A stretch of DNA of 64,000 nucleotides. It comes from Staphylococcus phage SAC. The position numbers were made by a program, and so were the translations under genes. Of this stretch, positions 35,480 through 61,798 are shown piece by piece; positions within the stretch are counted from its first letter, which is position 1; each line of letters starts with the position of its first letter. Under the pieces are notes generated by a model. The model saw only the letters and a program-made list of their open reading frames with translations, made no database searches and was not told the origin of the DNA. Location: sequence record OR234014.1. The stretch is one strand, 5' to 3'.

Positions 35480-36839
35480 CAGTTACTACCCCTAGTTTCC
35501 TAGTACTTTAACACTAACTTAATAGTGGGCTTAGACTATATCTTTAATTGCCTGGTATGCAAGTTTTTGTTTTCGGTCTATATGAATATTATTATCTCGA
35601 TATAATGTTTTCATTAATTTTTTAGCTTTTTTACCTGTATAACCTATTCTATAAGAGGTAGAAGTTTTAGATATTGTAGGACATTTAAAACCTAATAAGT
35701 CTTCAATCCAACTACCTACTTCTTTTAAAAATTCAGGATGATTGTTAACTAAAGTTATTGACCATCTATTATTATAACATCCAATAGAACCATCACCATC
35801 AAACAATCCTCTTAAGTAATGTTTCCTTAAATCATAAGGTATGTCTTGTGTTAACCAATCTGTTTTTTTAGTTTTCATAGGTATTATACCATATTTAGCT
35901 AAATCATTACATAGTTTTTCATCGGTAACACTAAAAGTATACGTAGAATTTTCATTTTTTATATAATCTCTTTTTCTATGAGATTCATAAATTTTACTGT
36001 CTGAATTCAATTCTTTTTGAACTCTTTCTACTATTTCTTTATCAATTAACTCTAGTGTTAAGTAACATTGACCTTCTCTTCTATATCTAACACAACCGTC
36101 AGCCATCAATAAACCTAAAATATATGCTTTCTCTTCAGTATCAATTACTTCAAAGAAATCTTTATTAATATTTCTATTAACTCTCCTAGGTTGATAGTAA
36201 GATGTATCAATACCAAAGTCTCTTAATATTTTACTTATCTCTCTTGCATGTGTTGTATAGACTGCTTTTATCTCTGCAATAGTCATAGACTCCTCAGTGT
36301 ACATTCTTAAAATATCTTGTTTTTGTTTACTAGTCCATCTTCTCTTGCTATTTGTGTCAATATTAAACTCATCTAGTACTTTTTTAATTGTAAAGTAATG
36401 TGCATTATACTTTTTTTGTATTTCACTAAATTTCTTACCTTCTTGAAAGGATTTCACTATATCTTGTTTTTCTTCATTAGACCATACTCGTTTTACCATA
36501 TTATACTACTCTCCATTTTAAATAGATTTCGTAGGCAATTCCCACGTACTTCGGTTTCCCTACTCTACTCAGTTACTCACTAATACTTCTCAATATTAGC
36601 TACCTTTTCGATAGTCGTTGAACCTTCTCCATTTTACAGGAGCTTGGATGCTGATTACCTACACTATATAATATAACAGTTTAATAACTCGTTATACCAT
36701 ATAACTCATATACTTGTTATTTTTAACATTCACGCTTACCGTTTCCAGTTACGTTGTAGTTAACAAGTCTTTAAGGCTTCCCAGCAATTCACGTGGATTT
36801 GTAATAACTCATTATAAGCCATTGTGGCTATTTAAGGTA
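35480..36839 (-). mobile_element. group I intron in the recA-like gene (1360 nt) carrying a LAGLIDADG homing endonuclease gene
   Basis: Splits Walker A: exon 1 ends ...YGLTGSG(GGT) and exon 2 starts KSTF. The upstream exon ends in U and the intron ends in G. GC-richer structured flanks. Core motif 'aagatatagtct' about 55 nt from the 3' end. Confidence 0.8.
35531..36499 (-). CDS. LAGLIDADG homing endonuclease (double-motif), intron-encoded
   Basis: Two motifs: 'YILGLLMADGCV' and 'LRGLFDGDGSI'. Confidence 0.8.
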   Translation of the reverse strand: MVKRVWSNEEKQDIVKSFQEGKKFSEIQKKYNAHYFTIKKVLDEFNIDTNSKRRWTSKQKQDILRMYTEESMTIAEIKAVYTTHAREISKILRDFGIDTSYYQPRRVNRNINKDFFEVIDTEEKAYILGLLMADGCVRYRREGQCYLTLELIDKEIVERVQKELNSDSKIYESHRKRDYIKNENSTYTFSVTDEKLCNDLAKYGIIPMKTKKTDWLTQDIPYDLRKHYLRGLFDGDGSIGCYNNRWSITLVNNHPEFLKEVGSWIEDLLGFKCPTISKTSTSYRIGYTGKKAKKLMKTLYRDNNIHIDRKQKLAYQAIKDIV

Positions 36840-37052
36840 ACCACTACCAGTTAATCCGTAAACTTCTGTAAGTCTTCCTAGAGGAATACCTCCACCTAAA
36901 ATTCTATCATATTGTGGAATCATAGTAGGAATGATATTCTTAATATCTGCTCTATTACTATCTGATAGTAAAGTTAAACCTAATTCTTTACCTAAGTCAA
37001 TAGTATTTAAATTTGTAGTATCTACTTCTTTACCTTTTTTTGCTCTAGCCAT
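36840..37052 (-). CDS. RecA/UvsX-like recombinase, exon 1
   Basis: 'IPTMIPQYDRILGGGIPLGRLTEVYGLTGSG' is RecA '[31 protein letters not shown]'. The track ORF reads through into the intron (YLK*). Confidence 0.8.
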
Positions 37053-37114
37053 TATATCATCCTTTTATATGAAATTTAAATAAAAGAGTGCTAAGATAGC
37101 ACTCTATAAAGTTA

Positions 37115-38290
37115 TTATAAATCTAAACCTGCTAATACATCATCTACACTCTTAGGTTGATTTTGTTTAGGTGGTTCTGGTGTTGATTCATTTGTGTTGA
37201 ATGGGATTTGAGAATCGTCAATGTTATTAGCATCAAAGTTCTCAAATGGATTACTTTGTTCTTGTTGTGTTGGTTGCTGTGATGTCTGTTGCTGTGGTGC
37301 TTGTTGCACAGGTGTTCCTTGACCAAACTGTGTATTTTGTTGTGGGGGAACTTGTGGTGTTGGTTGTTGTACAGTATTAAAGTTTGGTTGTGTGTTATTT
37401 TGCCCACCTAAATTATCTGGCAACTGCTGTTCTATGCTTTGTTGCGTAGGAGCTTGTGTTTGCTCTTGTGTTGATGGTTCTTCACCTAATGTGTTTGTTT
37501 CTCTATTGAATTTAAAATTATCATGAGAAACTTCTGTGTTATTAACATTGTTAATCAACCAGTTTACAAAGTTAGGGTTATTTTCTTCTGTTGGTGTAGC
37601 TAACTTATCTAAATCAGATAACTGCTGTTCCCAACCTTGAGGTAAAGCACCTAATTTTACTGTAGGATAAACAGTTACATTCCATGATTTTTCACCTTTT
37701 TTAGCTTTAGCAATATTAATAGGGAATGCATCATCTGCTGAAATAAAGCTATGTGTAGCAGTAGGTGATGGTGATAACATTTTATCTTTTAATCGGTCAA
37801 TCAATTGAGACAGACCTGTATTAGATAGCTCCATAGGTTGGATAACAACATTACCTTGTTCATCTGTGTTAGGAACTAATTGACCGTTTTGATTAAAGTA
37901 TTCAATAACATGAATATATGCTCGTCGTGCAGGTTTATTAGGGAAGTTACTAAATTGTACACCTTGCTTTAACCATGTATTTACATAAGGGTCTACAACA
38001 GATGAGTTAACTTTCTCGGGTAAAGTAAGCATAGAGAACTTTTGTGCTCCATCTTTTTTAACATAGTTAATACCTAGTGTTCTAAATTCCTTAAAGAACT
38101 CATTAGAACCTTCTACAGGCGGTAGTACACGTACAAGTGCAGACTCTTTATTGATTTGGTTACCGTTAGCATCTTTTACTTTACCTAAGCGCAAAACGAG
38201 TTGTTTTGGCTTGTATAATTCTACCTCATTGTCAAAACCACTTGATTGTAGCTTTTCTGATTGCTGATTAATAAATTGATTAAAATCCAT
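37115..38290 (-). CDS. single-stranded DNA-binding protein (T4 gp32-like) with Q/P-rich linker and acidic SSB tail
   Basis: 'LRLGKVKDANGNQINKESALVRVLPP' resembles gp32 'LKLDNAGNGQAVIRFLPS'. Long Q/P/T low-complexity region. C-terminal 'FENFDANNIDDSQIPF' resembles the SSB DDDIPF tail. Confidence 0.55.
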   Translation of the reverse strand: MDFNQFINQQSEKLQSSGFDNEVELYKPKQLVLRLGKVKDANGNQINKESALVRVLPPVEGSNEFFKEFRTLGINYVKKDGAQKFSMLTLPEKVNSSVVDPYVNTWLKQGVQFSNFPNKPARRAYIHVIEYFNQNGQLVPNTDEQGNVVIQPMELSNTGLSQLIDRLKDKMLSPSPTATHSFISADDAFPINIAKAKKGEKSWNVTVYPTVKLGALPQGWEQQLSDLDKLATPTEENNPNFVNWLINNVNNTEVSHDNFKFNRETNTLGEEPSTQEQTQAPTQQSIEQQLPDNLGGQNNTQPNFNTVQQPTPQVPPQQNTQFGQGTPVQQAPQQQTSQQPTQQEQSNPFENFDANNIDDSQIPFNTNESTPEPPKQNQPKSVDDVLAGLDL

Positions 38291-38360
38291 AATATCTTTT
38301 CTCCTTTTATTTTAAAAATTACTTAATTAGTATAACATGTTTTCTTTTGTTTGTCAATAC

Positions 38361-38843
38361 CTAATGTGTAAATGGGTTAGTAACACCACCATTTTTATTT
38401 GTTTGTCTTAGTTCCGCACTAATCTGTACTAACATAGTTGTACGTGTTTCAAAAGCTTTTACGATATAATGTAATTGTTTTTCTCTATAATTCCATGCTT
38501 CTACAACCTTTGCTTGCTGTTGATATTCATCAGAAAGAAATACAGCAGACTCTACTTGGTCTTTTGTAGGTTTCTTTCCCTGTTGTTCGTACTGAGCTCT
38601 AATTTGTAGATTAAGTTGAGCTCCTATTTTTTCTAACTTACGTTGCTCTGCTTCGGTATAATTACTCACACGTTCTTTTAATGAAGCCCACCATGCAAAT
38701 TTAGACGACTGTTGGTACATTTCGTCTTGAATTGTATATTCACTAAGTTTTAGTTCATCATGGATATTAAAAGTCTGAGTGTTTCCATTGTTATCTTTTA
38801 AGGTTAACTCATTGAAATCTAATGTATCTAAATGTATCTCCAT
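38361..38843 (-). CDS. hypothetical protein
   Basis: 160-aa ORF. Confidence 0.5.
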   Translation of the reverse strand: MEIHLDTLDFNELTLKDNNGNTQTFNIHDELKLSEYTIQDEMYQQSSKFAWWASLKERVSNYTEAEQRKLEKIGAQLNLQIRAQYEQQGKKPTKDQVESAVFLSDEYQQQAKVVEAWNYREKQLHYIVKAFETRTTMLVQISAELRQTNKNGGVTNPFTH

Positions 38844-38867
38844 AATACCCTCCTCTATTTTACTGTA

Positions 38868-39557
38868 CTATATAACTTTGAAACTGTCAATATTATTTTT
38901 AATATATTCCGTTTTTTGTTTGTACTGCTCTTCAGTTAGTTTATCTGATTCATAGTAGTCTTTGATTTGTTGTAAGGCTAATTTATACTTAATATATCCT
39001 TTATACGAATTAAATTGCTTTATTAACTCTTCGTTGTATTCTACCATATCATTATATGTTAATCCTATCTCTATATCTGCATCTATAGGATACTGTCTTA
39101 ACTCACCATTAATTTTTATTTTTAAGAAATCATAAGGAAGGTTCTCCATTACATGGACAATAACTTTAGCCATAATATTAACTTCTTCAGGAGGTGAGTC
39201 TACTACAATACTATCATGAACAGTAGCTACTAACTTCGATTTCATATTCTTATTTTGAATAAAGTCGTCAATATAAGTAATAGCCATGTTAGTAAGGTAA
39301 CCACCTGTACCTTGAATAATCGTGTTAAAGGACTGTCTAAGACCCTCATTTTTAATCTTTTTATCTCTAGATTGTGCTGAGTGTATATATCTTCTGTGTC
39401 CATTCATTGTTTCTACATATCCATGTTTTTGAACAAACTCATGAGTTTCATCTATAGACTTCTTAATAGCAGGTTTATTAGAATAAAACTTATTAAATAT
39501 TTCAGTAGCTTCATCAACTGTCATATTATTTTTACCTGCAAACGAAAACTCTGACTC
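38868..39557 (-). CDS. DNA polymerase (family A), exon 2
   Basis: Frame opens at 39557 with 'ESEFSFAGKNNMTVDEATEIF', parallel to Pol I 'MSAFGLARQLNIPRKEAQKY'. Motif C is 'LVATVHDSIVVD'. Confidence 0.8.
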   Translation of the reverse strand, partial: ESEFSFAGKNNMTVDEATEIFNKFYSNKPAIKKSIDETHEFVQKHGYVETMNGHRRYIHSAQSRDKKIKNEGLRQSFNTIIQGTGGYLTNMAITYIDDFIQNKNMKSKLVATVHDSIVVDSPPEEVNIMAKVIVHVMENLPYDFLKIKINGELRQYPIDADIEIGLTYNDMVEYNEELIKQFNSYKGYIKYKLALQQIKDYYESDKLTEEQYKQKTEYIKNNIDSFKVI

Positions 39558-40637
39558 CGTTTATACCCTCGGTTTCCCGATATTTATTAGGGGACTAGAC
39601 TATATCTTAAGTAAATACGTTACTATCTACTTCTAGGCTATTCCATGTAGGTATGAGCTACATGTACTCTACTCGGTTATATTGCAATAAGCCCTCTCGG
39701 CGTAAAGCTCACCTTTTGATAGTCGTTCGATAAAATAATTTAAGTGTTTAAGTGTAATCAAATCGTTCTCTTTTCTCTATTTTGAATGTAATCCCATAAC
39801 AATCTTCACCGGTTTCCATTTTTCTAAAGTTAGTGCCTGACGTAGGTATATTTAGTCTCTTTAGTAGCTTAGTTTTTACTCTATCATAATCAATTTCCAC
39901 ATGATTCTTATAAGCAACATAGTGAGGTGCATAAAGTTTAGAAGGGTTTTCTACAGGTTGATAATTATATTCTTGTAGTGTTTTAAAAACCCAGTTCTTA
40001 TGATGTTTTCTTTCCCCTCTAAGAACTGCAGAAATATGGCTTTGAATTAAGTTATGTTCCTTAGCAAATTTAGACTGATTGAAGAATATATATTCTTTAC
40101 CTGTAGGGTCTATACCTAATATCTTTTTACTTCTTGAAGGTACAAATCCTAAGTTCTCTTCTCTAGTAGCCCATTTACATTTATCTAAGCTATATACTTT
40201 ATTACCTAGTTCTTTAATATCCTTATCTAACACTAACTCACCATTTTTATACTTCTCTAAACTCCAACCATCAATTAACTCTACATCCTTAAGAAAGTTA
40301 TTAAAATTATGCCATCTATCGTCTACTGTTATTCCTAGTAATCCATAATATTTATATTCCTTACATTTAGGATTATAACATCTGTCTATCATATGAGACC
40401 ATACATGAGCTAATTTAGAATATAGCTTATTGTGATTATATCTTTCTCCTATTTTAAATTCTATTTAAATCATCCTTACTTATTAAATTACACTTAAATT
40501 ATTCTACACAGGATTAGCATTTTAAAGCCTTCCCTGTTAGCATAGTTCTTAACTACCATTTCCTGTAGCTCCTAACGTGAACTATACACCCTATACTCAA
40601 TAGGTTTACCTAGTTTTACTACGGCTATATTTTGTTA
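39558..40637 (-). mobile_element. group I intron in the DNA polymerase gene (about 1080 nt) carrying an HNH-type endonuclease gene
   Basis: Inserted inside polymerase motif B (RQASKAVAFGLIYG | ESEFSFA). Exon 1 ends in U (TAC GGT) and the intron ends in G. Core motif 'aagatatagtct' about 50 nt from the 3' end. Confidence 0.75.
39748..40392 (-). CDS. intron-encoded homing endonuclease (HNH_3-like with C-terminal NUMOD/IENR-type HTH)
   Basis: 'LDKCKWATREENLGF' resembles the HNH_3 'NLRWVTRSEN' motif. 'FFNQSKFAKEHNLIQSHISAVLRGERKHHKNWVF' is typical of the C-terminal DNA-binding module of phage HNH/GIY endonucleases. Confidence 0.5.
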   Translation of the reverse strand: MIDRCYNPKCKEYKYYGLLGITVDDRWHNFNNFLKDVELIDGWSLEKYKNGELVLDKDIKELGNKVYSLDKCKWATREENLGFVPSRSKKILGIDPTGKEYIFFNQSKFAKEHNLIQSHISAVLRGERKHHKNWVFKTLQEYNYQPVENPSKLYAPHYVAYKNHVEIDYDRVKTKLLKRLNIPTSGTNFRKMETGEDCYGITFKIEKRERFDYT

Positions 40638-43160
40638 ACCGTAAATTAAACCAAAGGCTACAGCTTTACTGGCTTGTCTTTCTTCTGCTGTTACGTCCTT
40701 CATACTTTTACCATACATAATACTTGCCGTATTTTTATGAATATCTTGTCCTGTTAAAAACATCTCTAACATTTCTTTATCATCTGTATATAGTGCCGTA
40801 ATACGCATCTCTAAGGCACTATAGTCGGCTTGTAAAATTACACCATCTTTAAATCTAGAGATAAAAGAACGTTTAATAGGGTGGTGATAATCAAACTTAT
40901 TTATATCAGATGTATGAGCAGGTAATTGTTGCATATTAATGTTTGAACTACTTAATCGACCTGATGCAGTTCCTGTACTATTATAGTTACCATGTAAATT
41001 ATGTGTATTCTTATTTACTCTTTTAGGTAATTTCTTAGTAAAAGAATTTCTTTTAGTTTGCAAAGAGGCATAATAAATAAGTAAGTCTAGTAGCTTTTTA
41101 TTATCTTCATTCTCAACCAAAGATAATGCCATCTTTATAGACTTAGTATCTGTTTTGTAGTCTTTCCATGATAACTCATCTTCTTTAGTACTATTACTGA
41201 AAGGTTTATCCTTAACTGTCTCTTTACTATAAGGTAACTGTATACCTAAAATGCTATATAATACTTCACCTTTATGGTCTCCTGAGCTTGGTTTGAACTT
41301 CCAACCTTCATCTTTAAATTTAGCTCTATACTCATGTATTTCTTTGTCTCTATCAGATGGTTTCTTCTCATGTTCTGCTAGGGCTAGTTGGTATAAATTA
41401 TACCTAGTTTCTTCAAATTCTTGGATAGCCCAATGCTCTCTAATTTCTTGGTGGGTTTTTTCCATCTCATTAATATAAAATTCATCATTTTTATGCATGT
41501 ATTCTAAGTCACAATGTAAACCATTTGATTGTATTCTAGCTAATGTTCTAATTAATCTAGGGTAACTTATTGACATTAAGTTCAATGCTTTAGGTCTATT
41601 TTGTTCTTTTAACTTTTCAATAACATCACAGTATATTCTTCTACAGACATCGGTGTCACCACTGGCATAAGGATGCATAAGCTCTAATGGAATCCAATCA
41701 TAATTAAAGTCACCTCCATCTACCTCATTAATAACTTTAGTATTGTCCTTATACGTGTTAATTAAATTAATAGATGTACCTAATACATAATCTTTAGCTT
41801 TGTTAGATAAACTCATATACTCGGGTGATGATTCGGCTACTTCTTTAAATTCAGAATCCATAAGCATATTCTTTGTAATAACCTCAGGTGTTAGTTTTAA
41901 CTCTAAGTATCTTTTTTGCTCTTCTGTGATACCATAATACTTATCTTCATCTGTTAGTTCTATATCAATGTTATCGAGTTTATTTTTCAACCAAGTATCA
42001 TACTCATTTGATTTTATGTTATATTCTTTCTTAGCAACTTTTTTATTTTCTTTTTTAATCTCTTTTAGTTTATCTGATAAGAATCTTAGTAGCTTCAATA
42101 CATACCACTCTTTAAAATCTTCAAGAGGTTTGTCATATCCTCCTACATCTGTTACTTCGTAAGCAAGGTCTGATAATCTTAGAGACTCTGCTTGTTCTTG
42201 TGTTACAGCTAAATACCAACCTACCTTAGTGTCTTGATTATTTTCAAAGTCTGTGAAACCTTGTGTTGTCATTAGAAAATTTATATCATAAGTAGCATTA
42301 TGTAGTACCTTAATGTCTTCTTTGCTAGCTACCCATTCTTTTAATAAGGAAAGAATTTCATCAATATCTTGTTGTCCATTCTCCCAAGTAAAGTCTGATT
42401 TATATAAAGGTATTGTAACACCTTGACCATTTTCCCAACTCATTGATAATACTAAGGGTTTACTTCCTTCTCTATCAGGACTAAGTGAGTTAGTTTCTAA
42501 ATCCCATGCGGTAATGTCTACACCGTCATGATTATCATTCTTTACTTCTTTATTAAATATTTCTCTTACACGCTCAATACTTGTAACAAGTTCATACTTA
42601 ACTTCTTTAGGTTTAAATACGTCTTCACCTTGTTCTACAAACTTACCTAATAACTTAAGGTCAGCTACTACATGACGCTCACTATTCTTATTAACGTTTG
42701 TGTACTCTATGCTATAAGTAGGTAATACCCAAACATCATGTTTTTTATCTTCACTAGTAATAGTTACTTTATTAGGTACACCTCTAACTTTACCGATAGC
42801 TGATACATTTAATAAATATTTAACCCCTAGCTTACCTAAAGGAATAATAATATCGTACTTATTGTTTATGATTATTTGACTCATTCTTTCATAGTAAGGT
42901 TTAACTTCAGATAACTTAACGTCTTGGTACTTAATTGTTTTACCATAGTTATTCTTAATAGGTGTAGGTACTTTAGGATATAAAAAATCAATGTCATAAT
43001 CCTTTGTGCTCCTATCTCTATTAATACCAGAAATATTAGACAATAGTTGTTTTAGTACTCTACCATTAGGTGTATTTAATAGTACATTCTTAACACTACC
43101 ATCATTACTAACTGAAAAGTGTTCCTCTCTGATATAGTCGTATAAAATTAAAACTTTCAT
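40638..43160 (-). CDS. DNA polymerase (family A) with 3'-5' exonuclease domain, exon 1
   Basis: Exo I 'ITAWDLETNSL' and Exo III 'YASGDTDVCRRIY'. Pol motif A 'ILQADYSALEMRI' and motif B 'RQASKAVAFGLIYG'. Confidence 0.85.
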
Positions 43161-43192
43161 GTTATTACCAATCCCTTCTTTAACTTAAATAC

Positions 43193-43221
43193 AGTATAGC
43201 ATATCTAATCATAGTAGTCAA
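43193..43221 (-). promoter_or_regulatory. promoter of the DNA polymerase gene (TTGACT-17-TATACT)
   Basis: Minus-strand 'TTGACTactatgattagatatgcTATACT', then RBS AAAGAAGGGA. Confidence 0.55.
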
Positions 43222-43250
43222 TAAAAAAAAGAGGAACTTAATCCTCTTTG
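43221..43250 (-). terminator. rho-independent terminator
   Basis: Minus-strand aaagagga-ttaagt-tcctcttt followed by T8. Overlaps the stop of the HU-like gene. Confidence 0.65.
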
Positions 43251-43540
43251 TTTAATACATCTATAACTTTATCTAATTCAGACAAAGGTTTAAACTTTAG
43301 TGCCTTTCTATTAGGTAAAGTGAAGTATGTTTTATTTAGTCCATCCCATGCTTTTTTACCCTTACGCTCTACTACTTCTATTTGAAAGTACTTATGATTC
43401 TTTACCTTATCGTAATCTTCAAGTAGTAATTCAGAAATAGCTTTTGTTTCTGCTTCTAGTATCTCTTCTACGTCTTGGATATAGTACCCTGTACTCTCAG
43501 ATATCTTTCTTGCTATATCTCTTCTATTTGCTGTACTCAC
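43238..43540 (-). CDS. HU/IHF-like DNA-binding protein
   Basis: 'RRDIARKISESTGYYIQDVEEILEAETKAISELLLEDYDKV...KYFQIEVVERKGKKAWDGLNKTYFTLPNRKALKFKPLSEL' follows the HU fold pattern (F.V..R.ar.GrNP.T.....P....f.pgk.L). Confidence 0.65.
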   Translation of the reverse strand: MSTANRRDIARKISESTGYYIQDVEEILEAETKAISELLLEDYDKVKNHKYFQIEVVERKGKKAWDGLNKTYFTLPNRKALKFKPLSELDKVIDVLNKED

Positions 43541-43548
43541 AAAATCAC

Positions 43549-44151
43549 CTAAATCTTAATCTTTCTTTGTCTTTTTAATTCAGTAAGTAGGTCTTCTATT
43601 ATTTCATAATCTTTATTTTCTTTACTAGCAAGAATATAGATATACATTTTCCACACGGACAAAGAAACCCTTAATTTGTCTGCAAAGTCAAGCGTATACC
43701 TAGGTTTTAGTTTATAAGCTTCTTTATCATACGTGTAGTACTTACCTTGTTTAGCGTCTATAGAACTAATACGAGGGAATGATAGATGAACCTCGTCTAC
43801 ATTCGTTTTAACATCGTATAAACTTCTAATAATATCGTAAGGATTGACGTAAGGAAATACAACTGAAATATCAATAATGACTTTTGTTCCCATGAAACTC
43901 AAAGCTATATTATCCATATCTTTGTTACTAAACTTACTACGCATTCTATATACAACTGATGATTTAGGGTGAGCTGATAAATCTTTAAGCACATAGTAAG
44001 GAATTACTGAATCGGTATAGTATGTTACTTGTCCACCGTGCTTGCATATTTTTTCAATCAACTTATCATTGTTATACTTCTCATTAAATAGCATGTAATG
44101 TTTATCATCTCTTAGTATATACCTAGTTGATTTATTAGCTAAGTTGTCCAT
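43549..44151 (-). CDS. hypothetical protein
   Basis: 200-aa ORF. Confidence 0.5.
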   Translation of the reverse strand: MDNLANKSTRYILRDDKHYMLFNEKYNNDKLIEKICKHGGQVTYYTDSVIPYYVLKDLSAHPKSSVVYRMRSKFSNKDMDNIALSFMGTKVIIDISVVFPYVNPYDIIRSLYDVKTNVDEVHLSFPRISSIDAKQGKYYTYDKEAYKLKPRYTLDFADKLRVSLSVWKMYIYILASKENKDYEIIEDLLTELKRQRKIKI

Positions 44152-44357
44152 ATCTTTTTCTATCTCATCTTCATTTAAAGTTGTAACTTTAATAGCTTTA
44201 GATAATTCATCTTTGTTTTTTACATGTATATTAAAATATCTATCACTATTATATATAGTTAATGTTTTATTTTTTGCGATAACTATTCATCCTTTCATGA
44301 AAAAACCTACTACCTTTTACTAATATAAGTATAGCATAAGTAGTAGGTAATTACAAA

Positions 44358-44690
44358 TTAAAGTAAATCTAATTCCATTAAGTTTTTAGGTGTTACTTGG
44401 TCTTCGAACTTCTTAGCAAGTTCCCCATCTTTATATCCAATAAGTACAGGTGTACTCATAATGTCAAATAACTTGACCGCTTTTTCTCTATCTACATCTT
44501 TATCATCTAAGTTAATAACATAAACAGGTTTAGTAATATCTCCTTCTGCTTCGAAAAGAGGAATCACACTTTTTAAAATTTCACATTTAGCACACTCATC
44601 TTGTGTAACCATGACAATAACATCCTGTTTTTGTCTGATTGTTGTATTTAACTCTAATAAACTATTCACTTTTTCCATTTTCTGTATCAT
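44358..44690 (-). CDS. thioredoxin/glutaredoxin-like protein (NrdH-like redoxin)
   Basis: CxxC active site 'DECAKCE' in a redoxin-sized protein of about 110 aa. Adjacent to the nrd genes. Confidence 0.6.
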   Translation of the reverse strand: MIQKMEKVNSLLELNTTIRQKQDVIVMVTQDECAKCEILKSVIPLFEAEGDITKPVYVINLDDKDVDREKAVKLFDIMSTPVLIGYKDGELAKKFEDQVTPKNLMELDLL

Positions 44691-44988
44691 CCTTTTCTAG
44701 TGTGTCAATAATATCTTTAAATGTTTCAATATCAGCTACATGTGTTAACTGCACCATACCATCAGCTTTAAATAACTTCAATGTACCTTCGTATATAAGA
44801 ATGTATACATATGTATTATAAATAAACTCTAGCTGAAATTTACTGGATTTACTATCTGCTTTAGTATCATCTCCCCTATTAAACATCTTAATAGGGTCTT
44901 GTACATTACTTACTTGTGAGAAAATATCATTTGATTTGAATATATCTTCAGTTCTACTTAGTAATCCAAACGCTTCTTTTTTATTCAT
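44662..44988 (-). CDS. hypothetical protein
   Basis: 108-aa ORF between nrdE and the redoxin gene. Confidence 0.45.
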   Translation of the reverse strand: MNKKEAFGLLSRTEDIFKSNDIFSQVSNVQDPIKMFNRGDDTKADSKSSKFQLEFIYNTYVYILIYEGTLKLFKADGMVQLTHVADIETFKDIIDTLEKDDTENGKSE

Positions 44989-45000
44989 TTAGTCACCTCT

Positions 45001-45936
45001 TTAGGCTTCACAATTAATACAAATTTTAGATAAATTGAATTGTTGTGATGCATTTGTACCATGTTGATAATACAATGACTTAATACCATTAGACCATGCA
45101 AAGAGATAAAGTTCATTTAACTCCTCTGCTGTAACATGTTTAGGGTTAATCATAATGTTTATAGATTGTCCTTGGTCAATATATTTTTGTCTTGTAGAAG
45201 CTTGGTCTAATATATTATATTGATTAATTTCACCATATGTTTTAAATACTTCCTTTTCATAATCACTTAAGAAAGTTAGGTGTTGAACGGAACCATCATT
45301 GTCCCTAATACTCTCAATAACTTTTTTATTGTCCTTTCCTTTTTCTTTTAATAGTCTTTTAAGGTAAGGATTAATCATAGTTTTCTTTACTTTAGCAGTG
45401 TCTACAACGTAATAATTACTCATAAAAGGTTCAATTGATTTAGAAACTTGACCTAGGATAAATGAGCTCGAAGTCGTAGGAGCTACCGCCATCAAACACG
45501 AATTCCTTCTACCATACCCTTTAAGAATAGTAGGCTCTCCATAAAGTTTAGCTAACTGCTCACTAGCTTTATAAGTTTTTTCTTTTAATAATTTAAATAT
45601 CTCTTCATTAATTTGACTAGCTTTAATACTTTCAAAAGGTATGAGTTTTGATTGTAGGTATGAATGATATCCAAGAACGCCTATTCCTAAGGCTCTGTTC
45701 TCAACAGAAAAGTTATAAGCTCTCTCCATAAATTTAAATGCTTCTTGTTTATCTTTTTCAGCTGAGTCTCTTAGATATTCTAAGTCTCTAATAAACTCAG
45801 ACATAACAGCATCTAAAAAGTAAACAAGTGTCTCTACAGCATCCGTGTGTTTCCATTCATCATACTTAACAAGGTTCATACTAGATAGGTCACATACAAA
45901 TGACCAATCTTCTTTATTAGGTAACATAATTTCACT
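45001..45936 (-). CDS. nrdE: ribonucleotide reductase large subunit NrdE-like, exon 2
   Basis: Frame opens with 'SEIMLPNKEDWSFVCDLSSMNL', which is NrdE 'SEILQVN...CNLGSLNL'. C-terminal Cys pair 'KICINCEA'. Confidence 0.8.
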   Translation of the reverse strand, partial: SEIMLPNKEDWSFVCDLSSMNLVKYDEWKHTDAVETLVYFLDAVMSEFIRDLEYLRDSAEKDKQEAFKFMERAYNFSVENRALGIGVLGYHSYLQSKLIPFESIKASQINEEIFKLLKEKTYKASEQLAKLYGEPTILKGYGRRNSCLMAVAPTTSSSFILGQVSKSIEPFMSNYYVVDTAKVKKTMINPYLKRLLKEKGKDNKKVIESIRDNDGSVQHLTFLSDYEKEVFKTYGEINQYNILDQASTRQKYIDQGQSINIMINPKHVTAEELNELYLFAWSNGIKSLYYQHGTNASQQFNLSKICINCEA

Positions 45937-46775
45937 CCTACATGTTCAATAGTGGTCGTTAATCACTACCAGTTCTCTAATTAACAATATTTATAGTTAG
46001 GGAATTTTTCAGAATTACATCTTCTGGTTAATGTATTTCTGTTTATTCCTAGCTCTTCAGAGCATATACCCATATTTTTATAAACTACGCCATCAACAAT
46101 AACTTTTTTAGCATTAGCGCTTTCTTTACCATACATCGGATTGTTTTTTCCTCGTCTATCCATTATATTCCACCCAAAACCTATCTCCATATTATAACCT
46201 TTTTTTACAGATTCGTACATGTCTATAAAAATTTGCTCTACCATGTAAGCAAACTTTTTATCCTCTGTACTAAAAGTGTATAATTCTTCTACATAAAAAT
46301 TCTCTTCACCATGTTTCATCATTGATTGGTGTAAATTAGTTGTTGAGCCTATCTTAGCTTTTCTAATATGATTTTTAAATCTATGTTGAACTGTTTTTGA
46401 TGTAATTCCGATGTATATTTTATTATTGTTTTTGTTTGTAATTTTATAAATATGGTACTCCATTTTCGACCCTCTTAATTATTATTGTTAATATGAACTT
46501 CTATATGTTTCCATATAGAGCAGACTATATCATCTTCCTTAATAAGGAAGTCCACCATTTCGATTTAAATAAGATTTACTTGATTATTACTCAATACTTA
46601 TACCACTTGGCTCTAACCTTATCCCTTCACTTATGTGAATAGGTTACGGATAGTCGTTAGGCATTTACAGATTTATAATCTGATTTAGCACGGTGTTGTC
46701 GTATATTTTAACTTAGATATTCACCGTTTAGATGGATTTTTCGATAGTAATTACTTACTAAAGGTGCAAATTTTT
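45937..46775 (-). mobile_element. group I intron in nrdE (839 nt) carrying a GIY-YIG homing endonuclease gene
   Basis: Splits the active-site 'SNLC|SEI'. Exon 1 ends TGT (U) and the intron ends ...GTAGG (G). The 'gatatagtct' core (46531-46545, minus) is 5' of the ORF. Confidence 0.8.
45981..46463 (-). CDS. GIY-YIG homing endonuclease, intron-encoded
   Basis: 'HIYKITNKNNNKIYIGITSKTVQHRFKNH' is the GIY-(10)-YIG motif with the conserved R. Confidence 0.8.
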   Translation of the reverse strand: MEYHIYKITNKNNNKIYIGITSKTVQHRFKNHIRKAKIGSTTNLHQSMMKHGEENFYVEELYTFSTEDKKFAYMVEQIFIDMYESVKKGYNMEIGFGWNIMDRRGKNNPMYGKESANAKKVIVDGVVYKNMGICSEELGINRNTLTRRCNSEKFPNYKYC

Positions 46776-47522
46776 ACACAAATTTGAGTTATTAATAGTC
46801 AATCCTTTGTCTTTATATACATCTACTGTATTACTATTTGCATTATCATGAAAGAAGATATAGGGGTATCCTATTTGTGTTCTTCTTGTTAATACTTTAG
46901 CCCATGTTTTTCTTTTTTCTTTGTCCCCATTAATCATGTCTAATAACCAATCATCAGTAACTGTTACCGCATGTGTTAAGTTTTGAATTGGATTACCTTC
47001 GGTACCAATCTCTAAAAACTCGTCAATATCTTTGTGTTCTATAGGTAGATAAGGGCTAAATCTTCCTCTTCTTTGGCTACCCTGACTTATCGTATCTGTC
47101 ATTTGCTCAAATAGCTTCATAAAATGAACGGAACCACTTGTCAGTCCATTATCAGTGATTTCTGAGCCTCTAGGTCTGATGTTACCGAAGTAACCACTTG
47201 TACCACCACCGTATTTACTCATCATACCTACTTCACTAGCAGTATTAAGTATCGATGGTATAGTATCATCTACCCAACTACCAAAACAACTAATACTAAA
47301 TCCTCTATCTTTCCCGAAATTAGACCATATAGGACTGGATAAGGAATAATAACCTTTACTCATATAATCATAAAACTTGTCAGAAAACCCATCAATACCT
47401 AAAATATCTTCAGCGTAATCTGCAATATCTTTAATTCTTTGTTCTGGTGTTTCACCATCACTTAAATAACCACGTTCTAGAAAAACTCTAGAATCATTAT
47501 TTAACCATTCAAAATTACTCAT
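46776..47522 (-). CDS. nrdE: ribonucleotide reductase large subunit NrdE-like, exon 1 (N-terminally short)
   Basis: 'SCFGSWVDDT' loop, 'GGGTSGYFGNIRPRGSEI', 'GYPYIFFHDNAN', and ends 'SNLC'. It starts about 95-140 aa later than typical NrdE. Confidence 0.8.
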
Positions 47523-47537
47523 CTATATACACTGCCT

Positions 47538-55946: not shown

Positions 55947-56194
55947 TATTTTACTCCCTCTTCACTAATTTCTATAACATCATGATTAGCAAACTCCTGT
56001 AATTTAAACATATGATTGTCATTAATCTCATTTAGTAGCTTACTTGAATAAAAATGTATCAATTCACATACCTCATCTGTGTAAGGCTCTCCTCTTAATA
56101 TATCTTCAAGGATATCCATTGCTTCTTCCGTATCTACCTTTACGTGTCTTAAAAATTCAGTCTTATCTTGTAGTTCCTGTATTGTCATTTTCAT
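55946..56194 (-). CDS. hypothetical protein
   Basis: 82-aa ORF, ATGA-coupled to the MTase. Confidence 0.45.
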   Translation of the reverse strand: MKMTIQELQDKTEFLRHVKVDTEEAMDILEDILRGEPYTDEVCELIHFYSSKLLNEINDNHMFKLQEFANHDVIEISEEGVK

Positions 56195-56645: not shown

Positions 56646-56649
56646 AGCG

Positions 56650-56886
56650 CTAGTGTTTAATTTTATTGTTTGTTAATTCTAACTCTATAATACTTCTTTT
56701 AGGCTTAATATTAAACAATTTACAACCATACTTATCTATTACGTAATTATCCAATGTATTAAATATATCGGTTGAGACATCCTCTAACTCCTTTTCAGAG
56801 TACTTTGTGTTTATAGTCTCTATAAATCCGTGCTTATTAATGACTTTAAAGTTTTTTAATTTTACTTTTGCTTCATTTAAGTTCAA
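56650..56886 (-). CDS. hypothetical protein
   Basis: 78-aa ORF. Confidence 0.45.
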   Translation of the reverse strand: MNLNEAKVKLKNFKVINKHGFIETINTKYSEKELEDVSTDIFNTLDNYVIDKYGCKLFNIKPKRSIIELELTNNKIKH

Positions 56887-56955
56887 ATCTTACCACCTCT
56901 TTATTGTTTATAATAAAAGTATAAGCCTTAACAAATACATTGTCAAGGCTTTTTC

Positions 56956-57213
56956 TCAATTTTTTAACTTATATTCAATTGCTTTAATTACTTCTTGATG
57001 TGTATTGCAAGGTATAGCAGGTACTTTATTAGACATAACGTTGTACTTATATCCTGTTGTATTATTCCTTGCTATAGAGTCTAGTAATGTAACACATACA
57101 TTAGTTCCTTTTAATTGGAAGGTTCTTAATCCTGTATTTGTATAATCCCATTCTGCTTTATTACGTGTAAATGTTCTACGTACTTTTTTATAAAGCTTAG
57201 TAAAGTCATCCAT
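56956..57213 (-). CDS. hypothetical protein
   Basis: 85-aa ORF, ATGA-coupled to the DnaB-like gene. Confidence 0.45.
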   Translation of the reverse strand: MDDFTKLYKKVRRTFTRNKAEWDYTNTGLRTFQLKGTNVCVTLLDSIARNNTTGYKYNVMSNKVPAIPCNTHQEVIKAIEYKLKN

Positions 57214-60231: not shown

Positions 60232-60240
60232 TACCCATAC

Positions 60241-61551
60241 CTACTTTCCTAATTCTTTAATTTCAAATTTTTCTTCTTCATATATTTTTCTACGCTCATT
60301 AGAATGTTTATATAAAAACTTATGTGTCATATCATTAAAATCAAATATCTGTGTTGTATTATCTTCTTTCTTTTTACGTAACGCACGACCTACACGTTGT
60401 AGTGTTTGTCGTAAAGATTTACCACCTGCACCTAGGATTAATGAACGAATACCACTGATATCAACACCCTCATCAATAAGGCTTGTAGCAATCATAACTT
60501 TAAGTTTACCATTACGCATTTCATCTAACTTTTGTTTACGCATATCCGACTCTATTTCACCATGTAAAAAGAAATTCTCTACACCCATTTCATTCAACAT
60601 AGTGGATAGTATTTCACCATGCTCAACAAAATTAATAATAATAAGCGTAGCTTTATCTTGATTATACCACTTAGCTGTTAGTTTTGCAATAAGTTTATTT
60701 CTAAACTCGTTATGTACAATACCTTTATTATATGCATCCCTGTAATCCTTAATATTATCTATATCATCAGGGTTAGCAATAGGGATAATATTTATTGTAG
60801 GTCTAGCTGAATAGCCATTCTCGATTAAAAACTCATTAGATGTTCTTACAATAATATCTCCGAATAATGCTTGCATACGCATCCATAGTAGCTCATCTTT
60901 CATGTCTATGGAGCCTGTTAGTGCTATCCTGTATAGTGCATTCTCACAGGACATTAAACTTGTATACCATGAATCTGATTTACTGTGATGTGCTTCATCA
61001 ACTATCATTACAGCTATAGAGTCTAGGAACTCACGCATTTTATGATATTTATCATAGCTCTTTTGATTTTTCTTTCTTACTTCTTTTTGGAAAATAACAT
61101 TATGATTGTTTAATGCCATTAATACTTCAGCATCCGTCTTTGAATTATGATAAATATCTTGAAGTATATCAAGCACATTCTGCTCTACTTTAGTTTTAGG
61201 TGTTGTACTTTCTAATAATAACTTAAGTAACCTTTTTTGATTTTTACCACCTTCAAATTTAGGAAGTATCTCTTTAGCTATCTTTTTACTTAAGTTTACT
61301 TTAGCAGATACTTTTACTCCTTCTGTAGGGTCTTTTAAGTTAGAGTTAACAGTAGGAATCATAACTACAGTTACTTGTTTAACATCAAACTTACCAGAAC
61401 CTACTTTACCTACTGATATATTCAATCGTTCACTTAAACGGTCAGCAGATTGATTAAAAATCTCAGTAGAACTTGTAAAAAAAGCTACACGCTCTCCTTT
61501 TTCTAGTTGTGGTAATAGTTGGTCTATGATACCGCTAGCAACCTCTGTTTT
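60241..61551 (-). CDS. SF2 (DEAH-box) helicase, exon 2
   Basis: 'MIVDEAHHS' (motif II) and 'LQRVGRALRKKK' (motif VI). The track's 'M' at 61554 is a TTG inside the intron 3' end. Confidence 0.8.
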   Translation of the reverse strand, partial: KTEVASGIIDQLLPQLEKGERVAFFTSSTEIFNQSADRLSERLNISVGKVGSGKFDVKQVTVVMIPTVNSNLKDPTEGVKVSAKVNLSKKIAKEILPKFEGGKNQKRLLKLLLESTTPKTKVEQNVLDILQDIYHNSKTDAEVLMALNNHNVIFQKEVRKKNQKSYDKYHKMREFLDSIAVMIVDEAHHSKSDSWYTSLMSCENALYRIALTGSIDMKDELLWMRMQALFGDIIVRTSNEFLIENGYSARPTINIIPIANPDDIDNIKDYRDAYNKGIVHNEFRNKLIAKLTAKWYNQDKATLIIINFVEHGEILSTMLNEMGVENFFLHGEIESDMRKQKLDEMRNGKLKVMIATSLIDEGVDISGIRSLILGAGGKSLRQTLQRVGRALRKKKEDNTTQIFDFNDMTHKFLYKHSNERRKIYEEEKFEIKELGK

Positions 61552-61798
61552 CAATTATGTTACGATTAGGTTCGTTACTCCTAACCTTCTTGTAGTCTCC
61601 TACAAAGTTCAGACTATATCTTAACCATATCTAATGAGACTTAGGTTCTCCCTGTTTCCAATCACTTGATTGTACATAATAGTCGTTGCACCTTCCTAGT
61701 AATTTATTAAGCTTGGCTCATGATTGTCTCAAATGAGAGAGTTCCCATGAATTAAAGGAGTTACACTTATAATATTTCTACTATAAGGGGCAAAATTT
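61552..61798 (-). mobile_element. small ORF-less group I intron (about 247 nt) in the helicase gene
   Basis: Splits Walker A 'ATNAGK|TEV'. Exon 1 ends GGT (U) and the intron ends ...TTG (G). GC-richer structured sequence with the 'aagatatagtct' core about 60 nt from the 3' end. In-frame stops in the intervening sequence. Confidence 0.7.

What the first reader, a model, noticed from the sequence alone, without database searches (positions are those of the whole stretch)
35480..61798. Four introns in replication genes share a conserved 'AAGATATAGTCT' core but carry three different endonuclease families
On the minus strand, revcomp of plus 'agactatatc' occurs at about 35535, 39590, 46535 and 61610. 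The 35535, 39590 and 61610 copies lie about 50-60 nt from the intron 3' end, consistent with a shared P7-region core. The 46535 copy (nrdE intron) instead lies 5' of the endonuclease ORF, about 600 nt from that intron's 3' end. This suggests a single intron lineage that repeatedly acquired different HEGs (LAGLIDADG, HNH-like, GIY-YIG, none).
Basis: seen in the sequence. Interest (0 to 1): 0.6.

Follow-up and report, generated by a model that had tools for sequence, protein, structure and literature searches.

The report
Four phage group I introns, universal core

Summary
GATATAGTCT occurs exactly four times, all on the minus strand, against 0.35 expected by chance. Each copy lies in a precisely delimited group I intron: recA-like 36839..35480, polA 40637..39558, RNR large subunit 46775..45937, and UvsW-like helicase 61798..61552. 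Uninterrupted alleles in related phages confirm every splice junction.

The motif is J8/7 plus the 3' strand of P7, the guanosine-binding helix. Its partner strand, AACGACTAT, also occurs exactly four times. The Rfam group I consensus itself reads AAGAUAUAGUCu, so the motif marks the class, not a lineage.

With the ORFs removed, no two of the four introns share significant similarity. The helicase and RNR introns match a Twort/Bastille-type ribozyme. The polA intron is SPO1/I-HmuI-type. The recA intron is a third, partly mosaic type. Each has closer relatives in other genes and other phage genera than within this genome.

Independent acquisition of the endonuclease genes is well supported. LAGLIDADG sits in the P8 loop, an I-HmuI-related ORF with no detectable HNH motif sits in the P6 loop, and GIY-YIG sits after P9. 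That is the textbook view.

The window is a Silviavirus at about 99% identity to StAP1, SPJ2 and Romulus, where these split genes are already published. This is known biology of low novelty.

The parts
35480..36839 (-). Group I intron in the recA/UvsX-like recombinase gene (1360 nt). It splits the Walker A motif as GSG|KST.
   Evidence: The 5' exon ends in U and the intron ends in G. The spliced junction is contiguous at 100% amino-acid identity in phage RP15 and in Kayvirus phages. The Rfam partial hit covering P3-P7 scores 23.8 bits, E = 4e-4. Helices P1, P3, P4, P6a, P7, P7.1, P8 and P9 were verified by script. The orthologous intron in phage 812 is annotated as spliced, with endonuclease I-812II.
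35531..36499 (-). LAGLIDADG homing endonuclease ORF (322 aa) in the P8 loop of the recA intron. Its 3' end supplies the P8 3' strand, J8/7 and the P7 3' strand.
   Evidence: Pfam LAGLIDADG_3, E = 3.7e-16, two stretches. phrog_4645, E = 7e-137. The ORF ends ...AIKDIV* on the 12-mer. P8 is AAUUGCCU (36540..36533) paired with AGGCAAUU (35553..35546), 8 of 8.
35533..35544 (-). recA intron: J8/7 plus P7 3' strand (AAGAUAUAGUCU)
   Evidence: It pairs with GACUAU at 36616..36611.
36611..36619 (-). recA intron: J6/7 plus P7 5' strand (AACGACUAU)
39558..40637 (-). Group I intron in the family A DNA polymerase gene (1080 nt), of the SPO1/I-HmuI ribozyme type. It splits motif B as AFGLIYG|ESEFSF.
   Evidence: Window bases 40638 and 39557 are adjacent in the intronless RP15 allele. 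P1 is UACGGU/GCCGUA, with a U-G pair at the splice site and a terminal G. The P3-position helix, H1, H2, P4, P7 and P8 are verified and covary across the relatives fetched, up to five sequences per helix. Phage Nemo has the same insertion site and the same guide sequence. Rfam gives only weak hits of 15.7 and 9.6 bits.
39748..40392 (-). Intron ORF (214 aa) in the P6 loop of the polA intron, related to I-HmuI-family endonucleases but with no detectable HNH catalytic domain. It may be truncated or degenerate.
   Evidence: Pfam finds only the I-HmuI NUMOD-like domain. phrog_2081 'HNH endonuclease' matches from profile position 112 onward. It is 37% identical to the Nemo intron ORF, which starts 26 aa earlier. 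There is an in-frame stop 25 codons upstream of the ATG. Only a weak match to the I-HmuI C-terminus, 1u3e. P6 is a 14-bp stem, 40503..40490 paired with 39747..39734.
39597..39608 (-). polA intron: J8/7 plus P7 3' strand
39719..39727 (-). polA intron: J6/7 plus P7 5' strand
45937..46775 (-). Group I intron in the class I ribonucleotide reductase large-subunit gene (839 nt). It is inserted after the Cys codon of the active-site motif, SNLC|SEIMLP.
   Evidence: Rfam RF00028 scores 63.7 bits, above the gathering score, for 46785..46501 as a full-length P1-P9 match when the ORF is excluded. Phage Koomba-kaat_1 has an uninterrupted allele at 98.9% identity. RP15 breakpoints are at 46776 and 45936. 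Helices were verified by script and fit the family alignment with covariation.
45981..46463 (-). GIY-YIG homing endonuclease ORF (160 aa), 3' of P9 and between P9 and the terminal P9.2 hairpin
   Evidence: Pfam GIY-YIG plus I-TevI DNA-binding domain. TIGR01453 'group I intron endonuclease', 59.9 bits, above its cut-off. P9 lies at 46518..46501, and the flanking pairing GUUCA (46498..46494) with UGAAC (45948..45944) brackets the ORF.
46522..46533 (-). RNR intron: J8/7 plus P7 3' strand (AUGAUAUAGUCU, one mismatch to the 12-mer)
46650..46658 (-). RNR intron: J6/7 plus P7 5' strand
61552..61798 (-). ORF-less group I intron (247 nt, Twort orf142-type IA2) in the UvsW-like helicase gene. It splits the Walker A motif as NAG|KTE.
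   Evidence: Rfam RF00028 scores 91 bits, E = 5e-22. Kayvirus phages have a contiguous allele across the junction. It is 72-79% identical to the tail-tube introns of the sister genome. Helices were verified by script.
61611..61622 (-). Helicase intron: J8/7 plus P7 3' strand
61679..61687 (-). Helicase intron: J6/7 plus P7 5' strand

Best explanation
The window is part of a Silviavirus, a Twort-like Staphylococcus myovirus. Four genes on the minus strand are each interrupted by a self-splicing group I intron: the recA-like recombinase, DNA polymerase, the class I RNR large subunit and a UvsW-like helicase. The repeated AAGAUAUAGUCU is the J8/7 joining strand plus the 3' strand of helix P7. It pairs with a second block shared by all four, AACGACUAU (J6/7 plus the P7 5' strand), to form the guanosine-binding helix at the catalytic centre. 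The splicing mechanism is inferred from established knowledge of group I ribozymes. The 5' exon pairs with the internal guide sequence in P1 with a U-G wobble at the splice site, exogenous guanosine bound in P7 attacks that site, and the terminal G of the intron then takes its place for exon ligation. The motif is conserved because the chemistry needs it, not because the four introns are recent copies of one another. It is part of the consensus for the whole class. Outside the core the four ribozymes differ. The helicase and RNR introns are of the Twort orf142/Bastille type. The polA intron is of the SPO1/I-HmuI type, with two extra hairpins between the P3 5' strand and P4. The recA intron is a third type that shares P4-P6 with a tail-tube intron and shares the J7/P7.1 lead and the GAGUAGAGUA block with the SPO1 type. 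Three of them were separately invaded by unrelated endonuclease genes, in P8, in P6 and after P9. These genes drive DNA-level homing into intronless alleles, and such alleles exist in sister phages.
For: Shown here. The motif occurs four times against 0.35 expected, and its partner strand four times against 0.34. The Rfam consensus contains the motif. Rfam scores are 91 bits for the helicase intron, 63.7 bits for the RNR intron without its ORF, and a partial 23.8 bits for recA. All four junctions are contiguous in intronless alleles. P1 with a U-G pair, a terminal G, and P3/P4/P6/P7/P8/P9 were verified. In the helicase/RNR family, 28 of 54 predicted pairs carry compensatory changes while P7 is invariant. 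The P3-position helix of the polA type has five all-Watson-Crick versions. No significant pairwise similarity exists among the four, whereas there are strong links to other introns. Relatives occur in terminase, tail tube, polA, nrdD and hydrolase genes of Staphylococcus, Listeria, Bacillus, Enterococcus and Clostridium phages. Literature: these split genes are reported for Remus and Romulus (PMC7497331), and endonucleases have invaded ORF-less introns on many independent occasions (PMC3984707).
Against: Splicing was not tested. The recA and polA introns fall below the Rfam gathering score, and no match to RF00028 was found for polA in the 14-kb scan, so their assignment rests on junctions, core motifs, hand-built helices and covariation. 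A very old common ancestor of all four cannot be excluded, because all have P7.1/P7.2-type insertions and can be linked through intermediate introns.
Confidence: 0.9

Rival explanations
1. One intron lineage spread to four genes within this phage lineage, for example by reverse splicing or ectopic homing. Its copies then each picked up a different endonuclease gene, or none.
For: All four have an identical P7 helix and the P7.1/P7.2-type insertions typical of phage IA introns. Three of the four 5' exons end in GGU, and the recA and helicase introns both sit in a Walker A GGT|AAA. All four can be joined by single linkage through the tail-tube and Listeria introns. Within the Twort/Bastille type there are ORF-less, GIY-YIG and HNH members.
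Against: There is no significant similarity between any two of the four once ORFs are removed. The polA intron has a different 5' architecture, shared instead with SPO1-type, Enterococcus and Clostridium phage introns. The nearest relatives of each intron lie in other genes and other genera. The 3' end of the polA intron is 100% identical over 46 nt to a Listeria phage terminase intron. The motif used as evidence is common to the whole class.
Confidence: 0.08
2. Reticulate origin. The ribozymes are mosaics built by recombination between different introns, with the short invariant core blocks (AACGACUAU and GAUAUAGUCU) acting as crossover points. On this view 'lineage' applies to modules rather than to whole introns.
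For: SapYZU04 tail-tube intron 1 resembles the recA intron from J3/4 to P7 (75% over 191 nt) and the polA intron from P8' to the 3' end (77% over 69 nt), whereas recA and polA do not resemble each other. The Listeria LP-125 terminase intron resembles the RNR intron at its 5' end and in P6, and it is identical to the polA intron for 46 nt starting inside the 12-mer. A 2025 survey of Bastillevirinae reports 5' and 3' halves that match different subgroups (PMC11878797).
Against: Similarity will always seem to end at universally conserved blocks, so the coincidence of breakpoints is weak evidence. Strong selection on P9 could produce the identical 3' module without recent exchange. Only a handful of introns were compared, and no formal recombination test was run.
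Confidence: 0.35
3. The repeats are a chance or compositional feature of AT-rich coding DNA and have no structural role.
For: With one mismatch allowed in the 12-mer, 4 of 100 shuffles reach four hits. The 9-mer with one mismatch allowed is not enriched, at 20 found against 22.8 expected.
Against: The exact 10-mer occurs four times against 0.35 expected, with 0 of 100 shuffles reaching four. All copies are on the coding strand, each inside an insertion that is absent from the sister alleles, and each has the complementary block upstream. Rfam places the motif in J8/7-P7.
Confidence: 0.01

Closest known systems
Group I introns of Silviavirus phages Romulus and Remus, and the orthologous recA intron of Kayvirus 812 (I-812II)
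   Same: The same genes, sites and ORFs at about 99-100% nucleotide identity for Silviavirus, and 85-90% for the Kayvirus recA intron. [quoted passage not shown]
   Different: Essentially nothing differs. This genome has a different presence/absence pattern from its relatives. It has no RNR inteins, no second RNR intron, no polA intein and no IS-like transposase near polA.
Twort orf142 (tail tube) IA2 introns, and the Bastille polA intron that encodes I-BasI
   Same: The helicase and RNR introns share this ribozyme type. Relative to the helicase intron, the tail-tube introns of the sister genome are 72-79% identical and a Twort intron is 78% identical over 84% of its length. The RNR intron shares the P9 hairpin CUAUAUGGAAACAUAUAG with the Bastille intron, and the helicase intron shares its 3' end GUAACAUAAUUG. 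The family alignment folds into P2-P9 with covariation.
   Different: The host genes and insertion sites differ. The RNR intron has enlarged P7.1/P7.2 and carries a GIY-YIG gene after P9, whereas the Bastille intron appears to carry its HNH gene in the P8 loop and the tail-tube introns carry none.
SPO1/SP82-type polA intron that encodes I-HmuI (seen here in Bacillus phage Goe9), and the Nemo polA intron
   Same: The polA intron shares its fold: the P3 5' strand, two hairpins, J3/4 GCUAA, P4 ACAGGG, the conserved GAGUAGAGUA block and a P8 with loop GUAACG. The P3-position helix covaries in five versions. The insertion site and guide sequence are identical to those in Nemo. The ORFs share the I-HmuI-type DNA-binding module.
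   Different: The SPO1-type intron sits at SSNEP|NAQQFPRK, not at IYG|ESEF, and has its ORF in P8 rather than P6. The window ORF shows no HNH catalytic domain.
Phage T4 td, nrdB and nrdD (sunY) introns
   Same: From established knowledge, these are several IA2 introns in nucleotide-metabolism genes of one phage. They share core sequences, carry different endonuclease genes in different peripheral positions (in nrdD the ORF is 3' of the core), and have ORF ends that overlap core helices. The ORF overlap is documented for td/I-TevI in PMC3073962.
   Different: The host clade, genes and ribozyme subtypes differ. They were not compared by sequence here.

Membership tests
Group I intron (Rfam RF00028) | P1 helix between the end of the 5' exon and an internal guide sequence, with a U-G wobble at the 5' splice site | tested here: met
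   recA GUGGU/GCCAC, polA UACGGU/GCCGUA, RNR GUGU/GCAC, helicase GGUAA/UUGCC. All are fully paired and every exon ends in U.
Group I intron (Rfam RF00028) | The intron ends in G (omega-G) | tested here: met
   The last intron bases, 35480, 39558, 45937 and 61552, are all G. Boundaries were fixed by intronless alleles.
Group I intron (Rfam RF00028) | Conserved core: the P3-P8 and P4-P6 domains, the P7 guanosine-binding helix and the J8/7 strand | tested here: met
   P3, P4, P6, P7, P8 and P9 were found and fully paired in all four. Covariation is seen in the helicase/RNR family and in the polA family. P7 GACUAU/AUAGUC is present in all four.
Group I intron (Rfam RF00028) | Score at or above the curated Rfam gathering threshold (50 bits) | tested here: inconclusive
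   Helicase 91 bits and RNR 63.7 bits with the ORF excluded both pass. recA gives only a partial 23.8 bits, and polA gives 15.7 and 9.6 bits. The model cannot span ORF inserts and is reported to be incomplete for phage introns (PMC11878797).
Group I intron (Rfam RF00028) | Removing the element precisely restores a continuous, conserved reading frame | tested here: met
   Contiguous alleles exist for recA and polA in RP15, for RNR in Koomba-kaat_1 and for helicase in Kayvirus phages. The restored motifs are GSGKST, AFGLIYGESEF, SNLCSEI and NAGKTE.
Group I intron (Rfam RF00028) | Guanosine-dependent self-splicing | not testable with these tools
   This needs in vitro transcription and splicing, or RT-PCR from infected cells.
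Subgroup IA (phage-type, IA2-like) | Extra helices P7.1/P7.2 between the P7 5' strand and the P3 3' strand | tested here: met
   The insert between P7 and P3' is 23 nt in the helicase intron and about 90 nt in the RNR intron. By intron position it is about 63 nt in recA and about 81 nt in polA, each with hairpins. The polA type also has two hairpins between the P3 5' strand and P4, which I could not place in the standard subgroup scheme.
LAGLIDADG homing endonuclease (recA intron ORF) | Two LAGLIDADG-type domains in one chain | tested here: met
   Pfam LAGLIDADG_3, E = 3.7e-16, two stretches, plus a match to the WhiA LAGLIDADG-like domain.
GIY-YIG homing endonuclease (RNR intron ORF) | N-terminal GIY-YIG catalytic domain joined to a DNA-binding domain | tested here: met
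   Pfam GIY-YIG at residues 3-91 and the I-TevI DNA-binding domain at 110-159. TIGR01453 scores above its cut-off.
HNH homing endonuclease (polA intron ORF) | HNH (beta-beta-alpha-metal) catalytic motif | tested here: not met
   No Pfam HNH domain was found at E up to 0.1, whereas I-BasI scores on HNH_3 in the same search. Only the I-HmuI NUMOD-like DNA-binding module is detected. The PHROG named 'HNH endonuclease' matches from profile position 112 onward. The ORF is related to HNH-family intron proteins but is not shown to be an HNH enzyme.

The most novel reading that the evidence does not exclude
The invariant core blocks (AACGACUAU and GAUAUAGUCU) serve as crossover points for exchange of ribozyme modules between different introns of Herelleviridae phages, both across genes and across host genera. 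Examples are the tail-tube intron that is recA-like in its 5' part and polA-like at its 3' end, and the Listeria terminase intron whose last 46 nt, starting inside the motif, are identical to the Staphylococcus phage polA intron. Phage intron evolution would then be modular and reticulate rather than tree-like.
Probability: 0.35. Interest if true: 0.4.

Novelty: already known. Interest (0 to 1): 0.2.

Why it matters
The main value is as a corrective. A short motif shared by several introns in one genome is not evidence that they are related when the motif is the universal catalytic core of the class. In practice, the pair AACGACTAT...GATATAGTC is a cheap and specific flag for group I introns in these phage genomes. 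In a sister genome it found 12 sites, all in gaps of split genes. Rfam's gathering scan reported five group I introns in that genome, only two of which coincide with these 12 sites. That helps avoid annotating exons as separate genes in phages being considered for therapy. The comparison also shows plainly that endonuclease genes colonise ORF-less ribozymes independently. One conserved RNR active-site codon can host either an intron or an intein in sister phages.

Tried and rejected
1. Rfam with permissive thresholds over 34500-48500 found nothing, because the model cannot bridge ORF inserts. Giving it only the ribozyme segments worked for the RNR intron, partly for recA and hardly at all for polA.

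2. I expected the polA intron to sit at the SPO1/Bastille insertion site. Checking the Bastille and Goe9 records showed it does not, although Nemo does share the window's site.

3. I considered a canonical P3 for the polA intron (ACUAU/AUAGU, directly next to J3/4). I rejected it because it is not at homologous positions in Nemo, whereas CUAGG/CCUAG covaries in five sequences.

4. The 247 nt that RP15 has and the window lacks looked like another ORF-less intron because of its length. It is simply the N-terminal coding part of a methylase gene, deleted in the window.

5. The extra GATATAGTC 9-mers at 8627-8635 (minus strand) and 43131-43139 (plus strand) have no AACGACTAT partner and were treated as chance.

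6. The Twort and Bastille primary papers (PMC113830, PMC22036, PMC162337) are not held. Statements about them rest on reviews and on my own knowledge.

7. Several fetched loci never reached the Python sandbox, so some sequences were pasted in by hand.

8. No full phylogeny and no formal recombination test were run.

Full report
**What the window is.** The region 35000-48000 is about 99% identical to Staphylococcus phages StAP1, SPJ2, LSA2308/2311 and Stau2, which are Herelleviridae, Twortvirinae, genus Silviavirus. All genes discussed here are on the minus strand.

**The observation.** The exact 12-mer AAGATATAGTCT lies at 35544-35533, 39608-39597 and 61622-61611. The copy at 46533-46522 is ATGATATAGTCT. 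The shared 10-mer GATATAGTCT occurs exactly four times against 0.35 expected, and none of 100 shuffles reached four. Its chance expectation is 0.34. GACUAU in this block is the Watson-Crick partner of AUAGUC in the motif.

**The four elements are introns with exact boundaries.** Pfam shows each host gene in two pieces with an insert between them.

| Host gene | Insert contains |
|---|---|
| recA-like recombinase | LAGLIDADG ORF |
| family A DNA polymerase | I-HmuI-related ORF |
| RNR large subunit | GIY-YIG ORF |
| UvsW-like helicase | no ORF |

Reading the sequence gives these introns.

| Intron | Coordinates (minus strand) | Length |
|---|---|---|
| recA | 36839..35480 | 1360 nt |
| polA | 40637..39558 | 1080 nt |
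| RNR | 46775..45937 | 839 nt |
| helicase | 61798..61552 | 247 nt |

In each, the 5' exon ends in U and the intron ends in G. Joining the exons restores GSG|KST (Walker A), AFGLIYG|ESEF (polymerase motif B), SNLC|SEIMLP (the RNR active-site cysteine) and NAG|KTE (Walker A).

Natural alleles without the introns confirm the junctions. Silviavirus RP15 has uninterrupted recA and polA. Window bases 40638 and 39557 are adjacent in RP15, and the recA junction matches apart from synonymous differences. Koomba-kaat_1 is contiguous across the RNR junction at 98.9% identity. Kayvirus phages are contiguous across the helicase junction.

**They are group I introns, and the motif is their catalytic core.** Rfam RF00028 matches the helicase intron at 91 bits. 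Its consensus line reads UgAAGAUAUAGUCu at the aligned position, in the joining region just before P9. With the ORF excluded, the RNR intron gives a full-length P1-P9 match of 63.7 bits at 46785..46501. So its whole core lies 5' of the GIY-YIG gene. The recA 5' segment gives a partial match covering P3-P7 (23.8 bits, E = 4e-4). The polA segments give only 15.7 and 9.6 bits.

A script verified fully paired P1 (with the U-G wobble), P3, P4, P6, P7, P8 and P9 in all four and gave their coordinates. From established knowledge of group I ribozymes, P7 forms the guanosine-binding site and J8/7 lines the active site. That accounts for the invariance of these two blocks. From memory, the Tetrahymena rRNA intron carries AAGAUAUAGUCG at the same place.

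**Does the motif indicate one lineage? No.** With ORFs removed, BLAST among the four finds only the two core blocks, 9-17 nt long, plus a GAGTAGAGTA block shared by recA and polA. In a panel that also held the sister genome's four tail-tube introns and a Listeria terminase intron, no pair of window introns gave a hit at E below 1e-3. Each window intron nevertheless had strong partners elsewhere.

| Window intron | Partner | Identity | Aligned length |
|---|---|---|---|
| helicase | tail-tube introns 2-4 | 72-79% | near full length for introns 3-4 |
| RNR | tail-tube introns 2-4 | 72-75% (one further HSP 64% over 159 nt) | 89-110 nt |
| RNR | Listeria terminase intron | 75-81% | 43-51 nt |
| recA | tail-tube intron 1 | 75% | 191 nt |
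| polA | tail-tube intron 1 (3' end) | 77% | 69 nt |
| polA | Listeria terminase intron | 100% | 46 nt, starting inside the motif |

Database searches agree. Relatives of the helicase intron sit in terminase, polymerase, TmpA/tail-tube and hydrolase genes of other Staphylococcus phages. The recA intron has same-site orthologues in Kayvirus, annotated in phage 812 as a spliced gene with I-812II. The polA intron's 5' region matches introns in nrdD of Enterococcus and Clostridium phages and in polA of Bacillus phages. The RNR intron's core matches introns of Vibrio, Yersinia, Klebsiella and Bacillus phages.

**At least three ribozyme types.**

1. *Helicase and RNR introns.* These align with tail-tube introns 2-4 and with the Bastille I-BasI intron. 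RNAalifold recovers P2, P4, P5, P6/P6a, P7, P7.2, P8 and P9, and 28 of 54 pairs are kept through changes on both sides. P7 never varies. P3 read by hand also covaries: CUCCUU/AGGGAG, UCCCUU/GGGGGA, AUCCCU/GGGGAU, CUCCGU/GCGGAG, UCCAUC/GGUGGA and CCCUUC/GGAGGG. The 44 nt after the GIY-YIG gene form the same terminal hairpin as in the helicase intron. The RNR intron has GGUAGUG-AUUAACGAC-CACUAUU, and the helicase intron has GGUUAGG-AGUAACGAA-CCUAAUC.

2. *The polA intron.* This belongs to the SPO1/I-HmuI type. The helix at the P3 position appears in five all-Watson-Crick versions: CUAGG/CCUAG in the window, CACAG/CUGUG in Nemo, CUACG/CGUAG in EFP01, CCCAG/CUGGG in Goe9 and CCACG/CGUGG in CS20. 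Two hairpins between that helix and P4 also covary, and so does P8. All five sequences carry the GAGUAGAGUA block, with one base changed in CS20. Nemo has the same insertion site and guide sequence as the window. The SPO1-type and Bastille introns sit at a different polA site.

3. *The recA intron.* This has a canonical P3-J3/4-P4 region. It shares P4-P6 with tail-tube intron 1. It shares the sequence between P7 and P7.1 and the GAGUAGAGUA block with the SPO1 type.

**Endonuclease genes.** The LAGLIDADG ORF lies in the P8 loop. Its last codons, K-D-I-V-stop, are the 12-mer itself, and sequence just upstream of them supplies the P8 3' strand. The GIY-YIG ORF lies after P9. The polA ORF lies in the P6 loop, closed by a 14-bp stem.

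The polA ORF matches an 'HNH endonuclease' PHROG only from profile position 112 onward. It has only the I-HmuI-type DNA-binding module in Pfam, whereas I-BasI shows HNH_3. It is 37% identical to the Nemo intron protein, has an in-frame stop 25 codons upstream of its ATG, and has no informative match among solved structures. So 'three different ORF families in three different positions' holds, but 'HNH' is not demonstrated.

Within single ribozyme types, the ORF position and family also vary. The Twort/Bastille type has members with no ORF, with GIY-YIG after P9 and, as it appears in Bastille, with HNH in P8. The SPO1 type has its ORF in P6 or in P8. This fits the accepted view that endonuclease genes invade ORF-less introns independently (PMC3984707).

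**The rest of the genome.** In the complete, near-identical genome SapYZU04, the 12-mer with one mismatch allowed hits 12 sites. All lie in gaps of split genes: endolysin, six sites in the terminase-gene region, tail tube, helicase, RNR, polA and recA. Rfam's gathering scan reports five group I introns there, the helicase intron and four in the tail tube. Only two of them coincide with the 12 motif sites. Some introns carry variant motifs, for example GGCAUAGUCU in tail-tube intron 1 and AAGAAAUAGUCU in Nemo.

**Prior knowledge and verdict.** Group I introns splitting the helicase, RNR, DNA-repair and DNA polymerase I genes of Remus and Romulus are already reported, as is the I-RoReV endonuclease in polA (PMC7497331; Romulus record). 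A 2025 study notes that phage 'IA2' introns are heterogeneous, that the 5' and 3' halves can match different subgroups, and that the Rfam model is incomplete for them (PMC11878797).

The finding is therefore a correct observation of known elements. Its evolutionary inference is not supported by the motif, and the rest of the sequence contradicts it in the strict sense. The only mildly novel thread is the mosaic pattern among these introns, which I did not test formally.

Noticed in passing
window 46776-46780 (SNLC site) and about 47061-47079; L002 26774-27770; L001 13546-14533: The RNR large-subunit gene hosts three kinds of mobile insertion. The window has an intron just after the active-site Cys codon. 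RP15 has a 333-aa intein (CVAPYTKILT...GILTGQ|C) just before that same codon. SPJ2, and by their matching 1734-nt exon-1 annotations Romulus and SapYZU04, carry another intein at GS|(Q/T)RRG. Romulus and SapYZU04 also have a second, HNH-bearing insert in exon 2. The window has neither intein.
   Followed up: partly
window 35531-35553: The LAGLIDADG ORF ends K-D-I-V-stop on the 12-mer itself, and sequence just upstream supplies the P8 3' strand. The catalytic RNA core therefore doubles as coding sequence.
   Followed up: yes
window 36840-36851 and 35471-35479 (recA); 40638-40643 and 39549-39557 (polA), compared with L002: The intronless RP15 alleles differ from the window by clustered synonymous changes right at the insertion sites. 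For recA it is GGC TCG GGT|AAA TCG ACC against GGT AGT GGT|AAA TCG ACT. For polA it is TAT GGT|GAA TCG GAA against TAC GGT|GAG TCA GAG. This could reflect endonuclease-resistant target sites or co-conversion tracts.
   Followed up: no
window 36840-36842 joined to 35477-35479, and 61799-61801 joined to 61549-61551: The recA and helicase introns both split a Walker A P-loop between GGT (Gly) and AAA (Lys). The two introns are of unrelated ribozyme types.
   Followed up: no
window 40542-40613: The polA-type ribozyme has two hairpins between the 5' strand of the P3-position helix and J3/4-P4. This feature is conserved and covaries in Nemo, EFP01, CS20 and the SPO1-type Goe9 intron. I could not place it in the standard subgroup scheme from memory.
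   Followed up: partly
window 39748-40467: The polA-intron ORF has no recognisable nuclease domain, and its conserved N-terminal region (RCYNP..Y..YG..GITV..W) matches no solved structure. Its homologue in Nemo starts 26 aa earlier, and the window has an in-frame stop upstream. It may be a degenerate endonuclease gene or an unrecognised nuclease fold.
   Followed up: partly
window 39561-39606; L004 2501-2546: From inside the 12-mer towards the intron's 3' end, 46 nt are 100% identical between this Staphylococcus phage polA intron and an unannotated intron that splits the terminase gene of Listeria phage LP-125. Near-identical copies occur in many Listeria, Enterococcus and Bacillus phages.
   Followed up: partly
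window about 56654-56658 and about 43242-43245, compared with L002: Relative to RP15, the window lacks 247 nt that encode the N-terminus of a DNA methylase. It also lacks a 1.6-kb insert carrying a transposase upstream of polA. In SapYZU04, transposase inserts are flanked by Rfam RAGATH-18 RNAs.
   Followed up: no
window 47538-48875 and 45001-47522: The RNR small subunit carries an N-terminal ATP-cone, and the large subunit is short (about 560 aa when spliced). Related records annotate the large subunit as class Ia, and its nearest non-Staphylococcus relatives are NrdA proteins of Gram-negative phages. 'nrdE' is therefore a loose name.
   Followed up: no
L007 7243-8397 (SapYZU04) and L005 1485-2638 (CIFT_MFB_MRSA16): The tail-tube gene of sister Silviaviruses holds four tandem group I introns separated by very short exons. 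In SapYZU04 the first is of a different ribozyme type from the other three. This region lies outside the window.
   Followed up: partly
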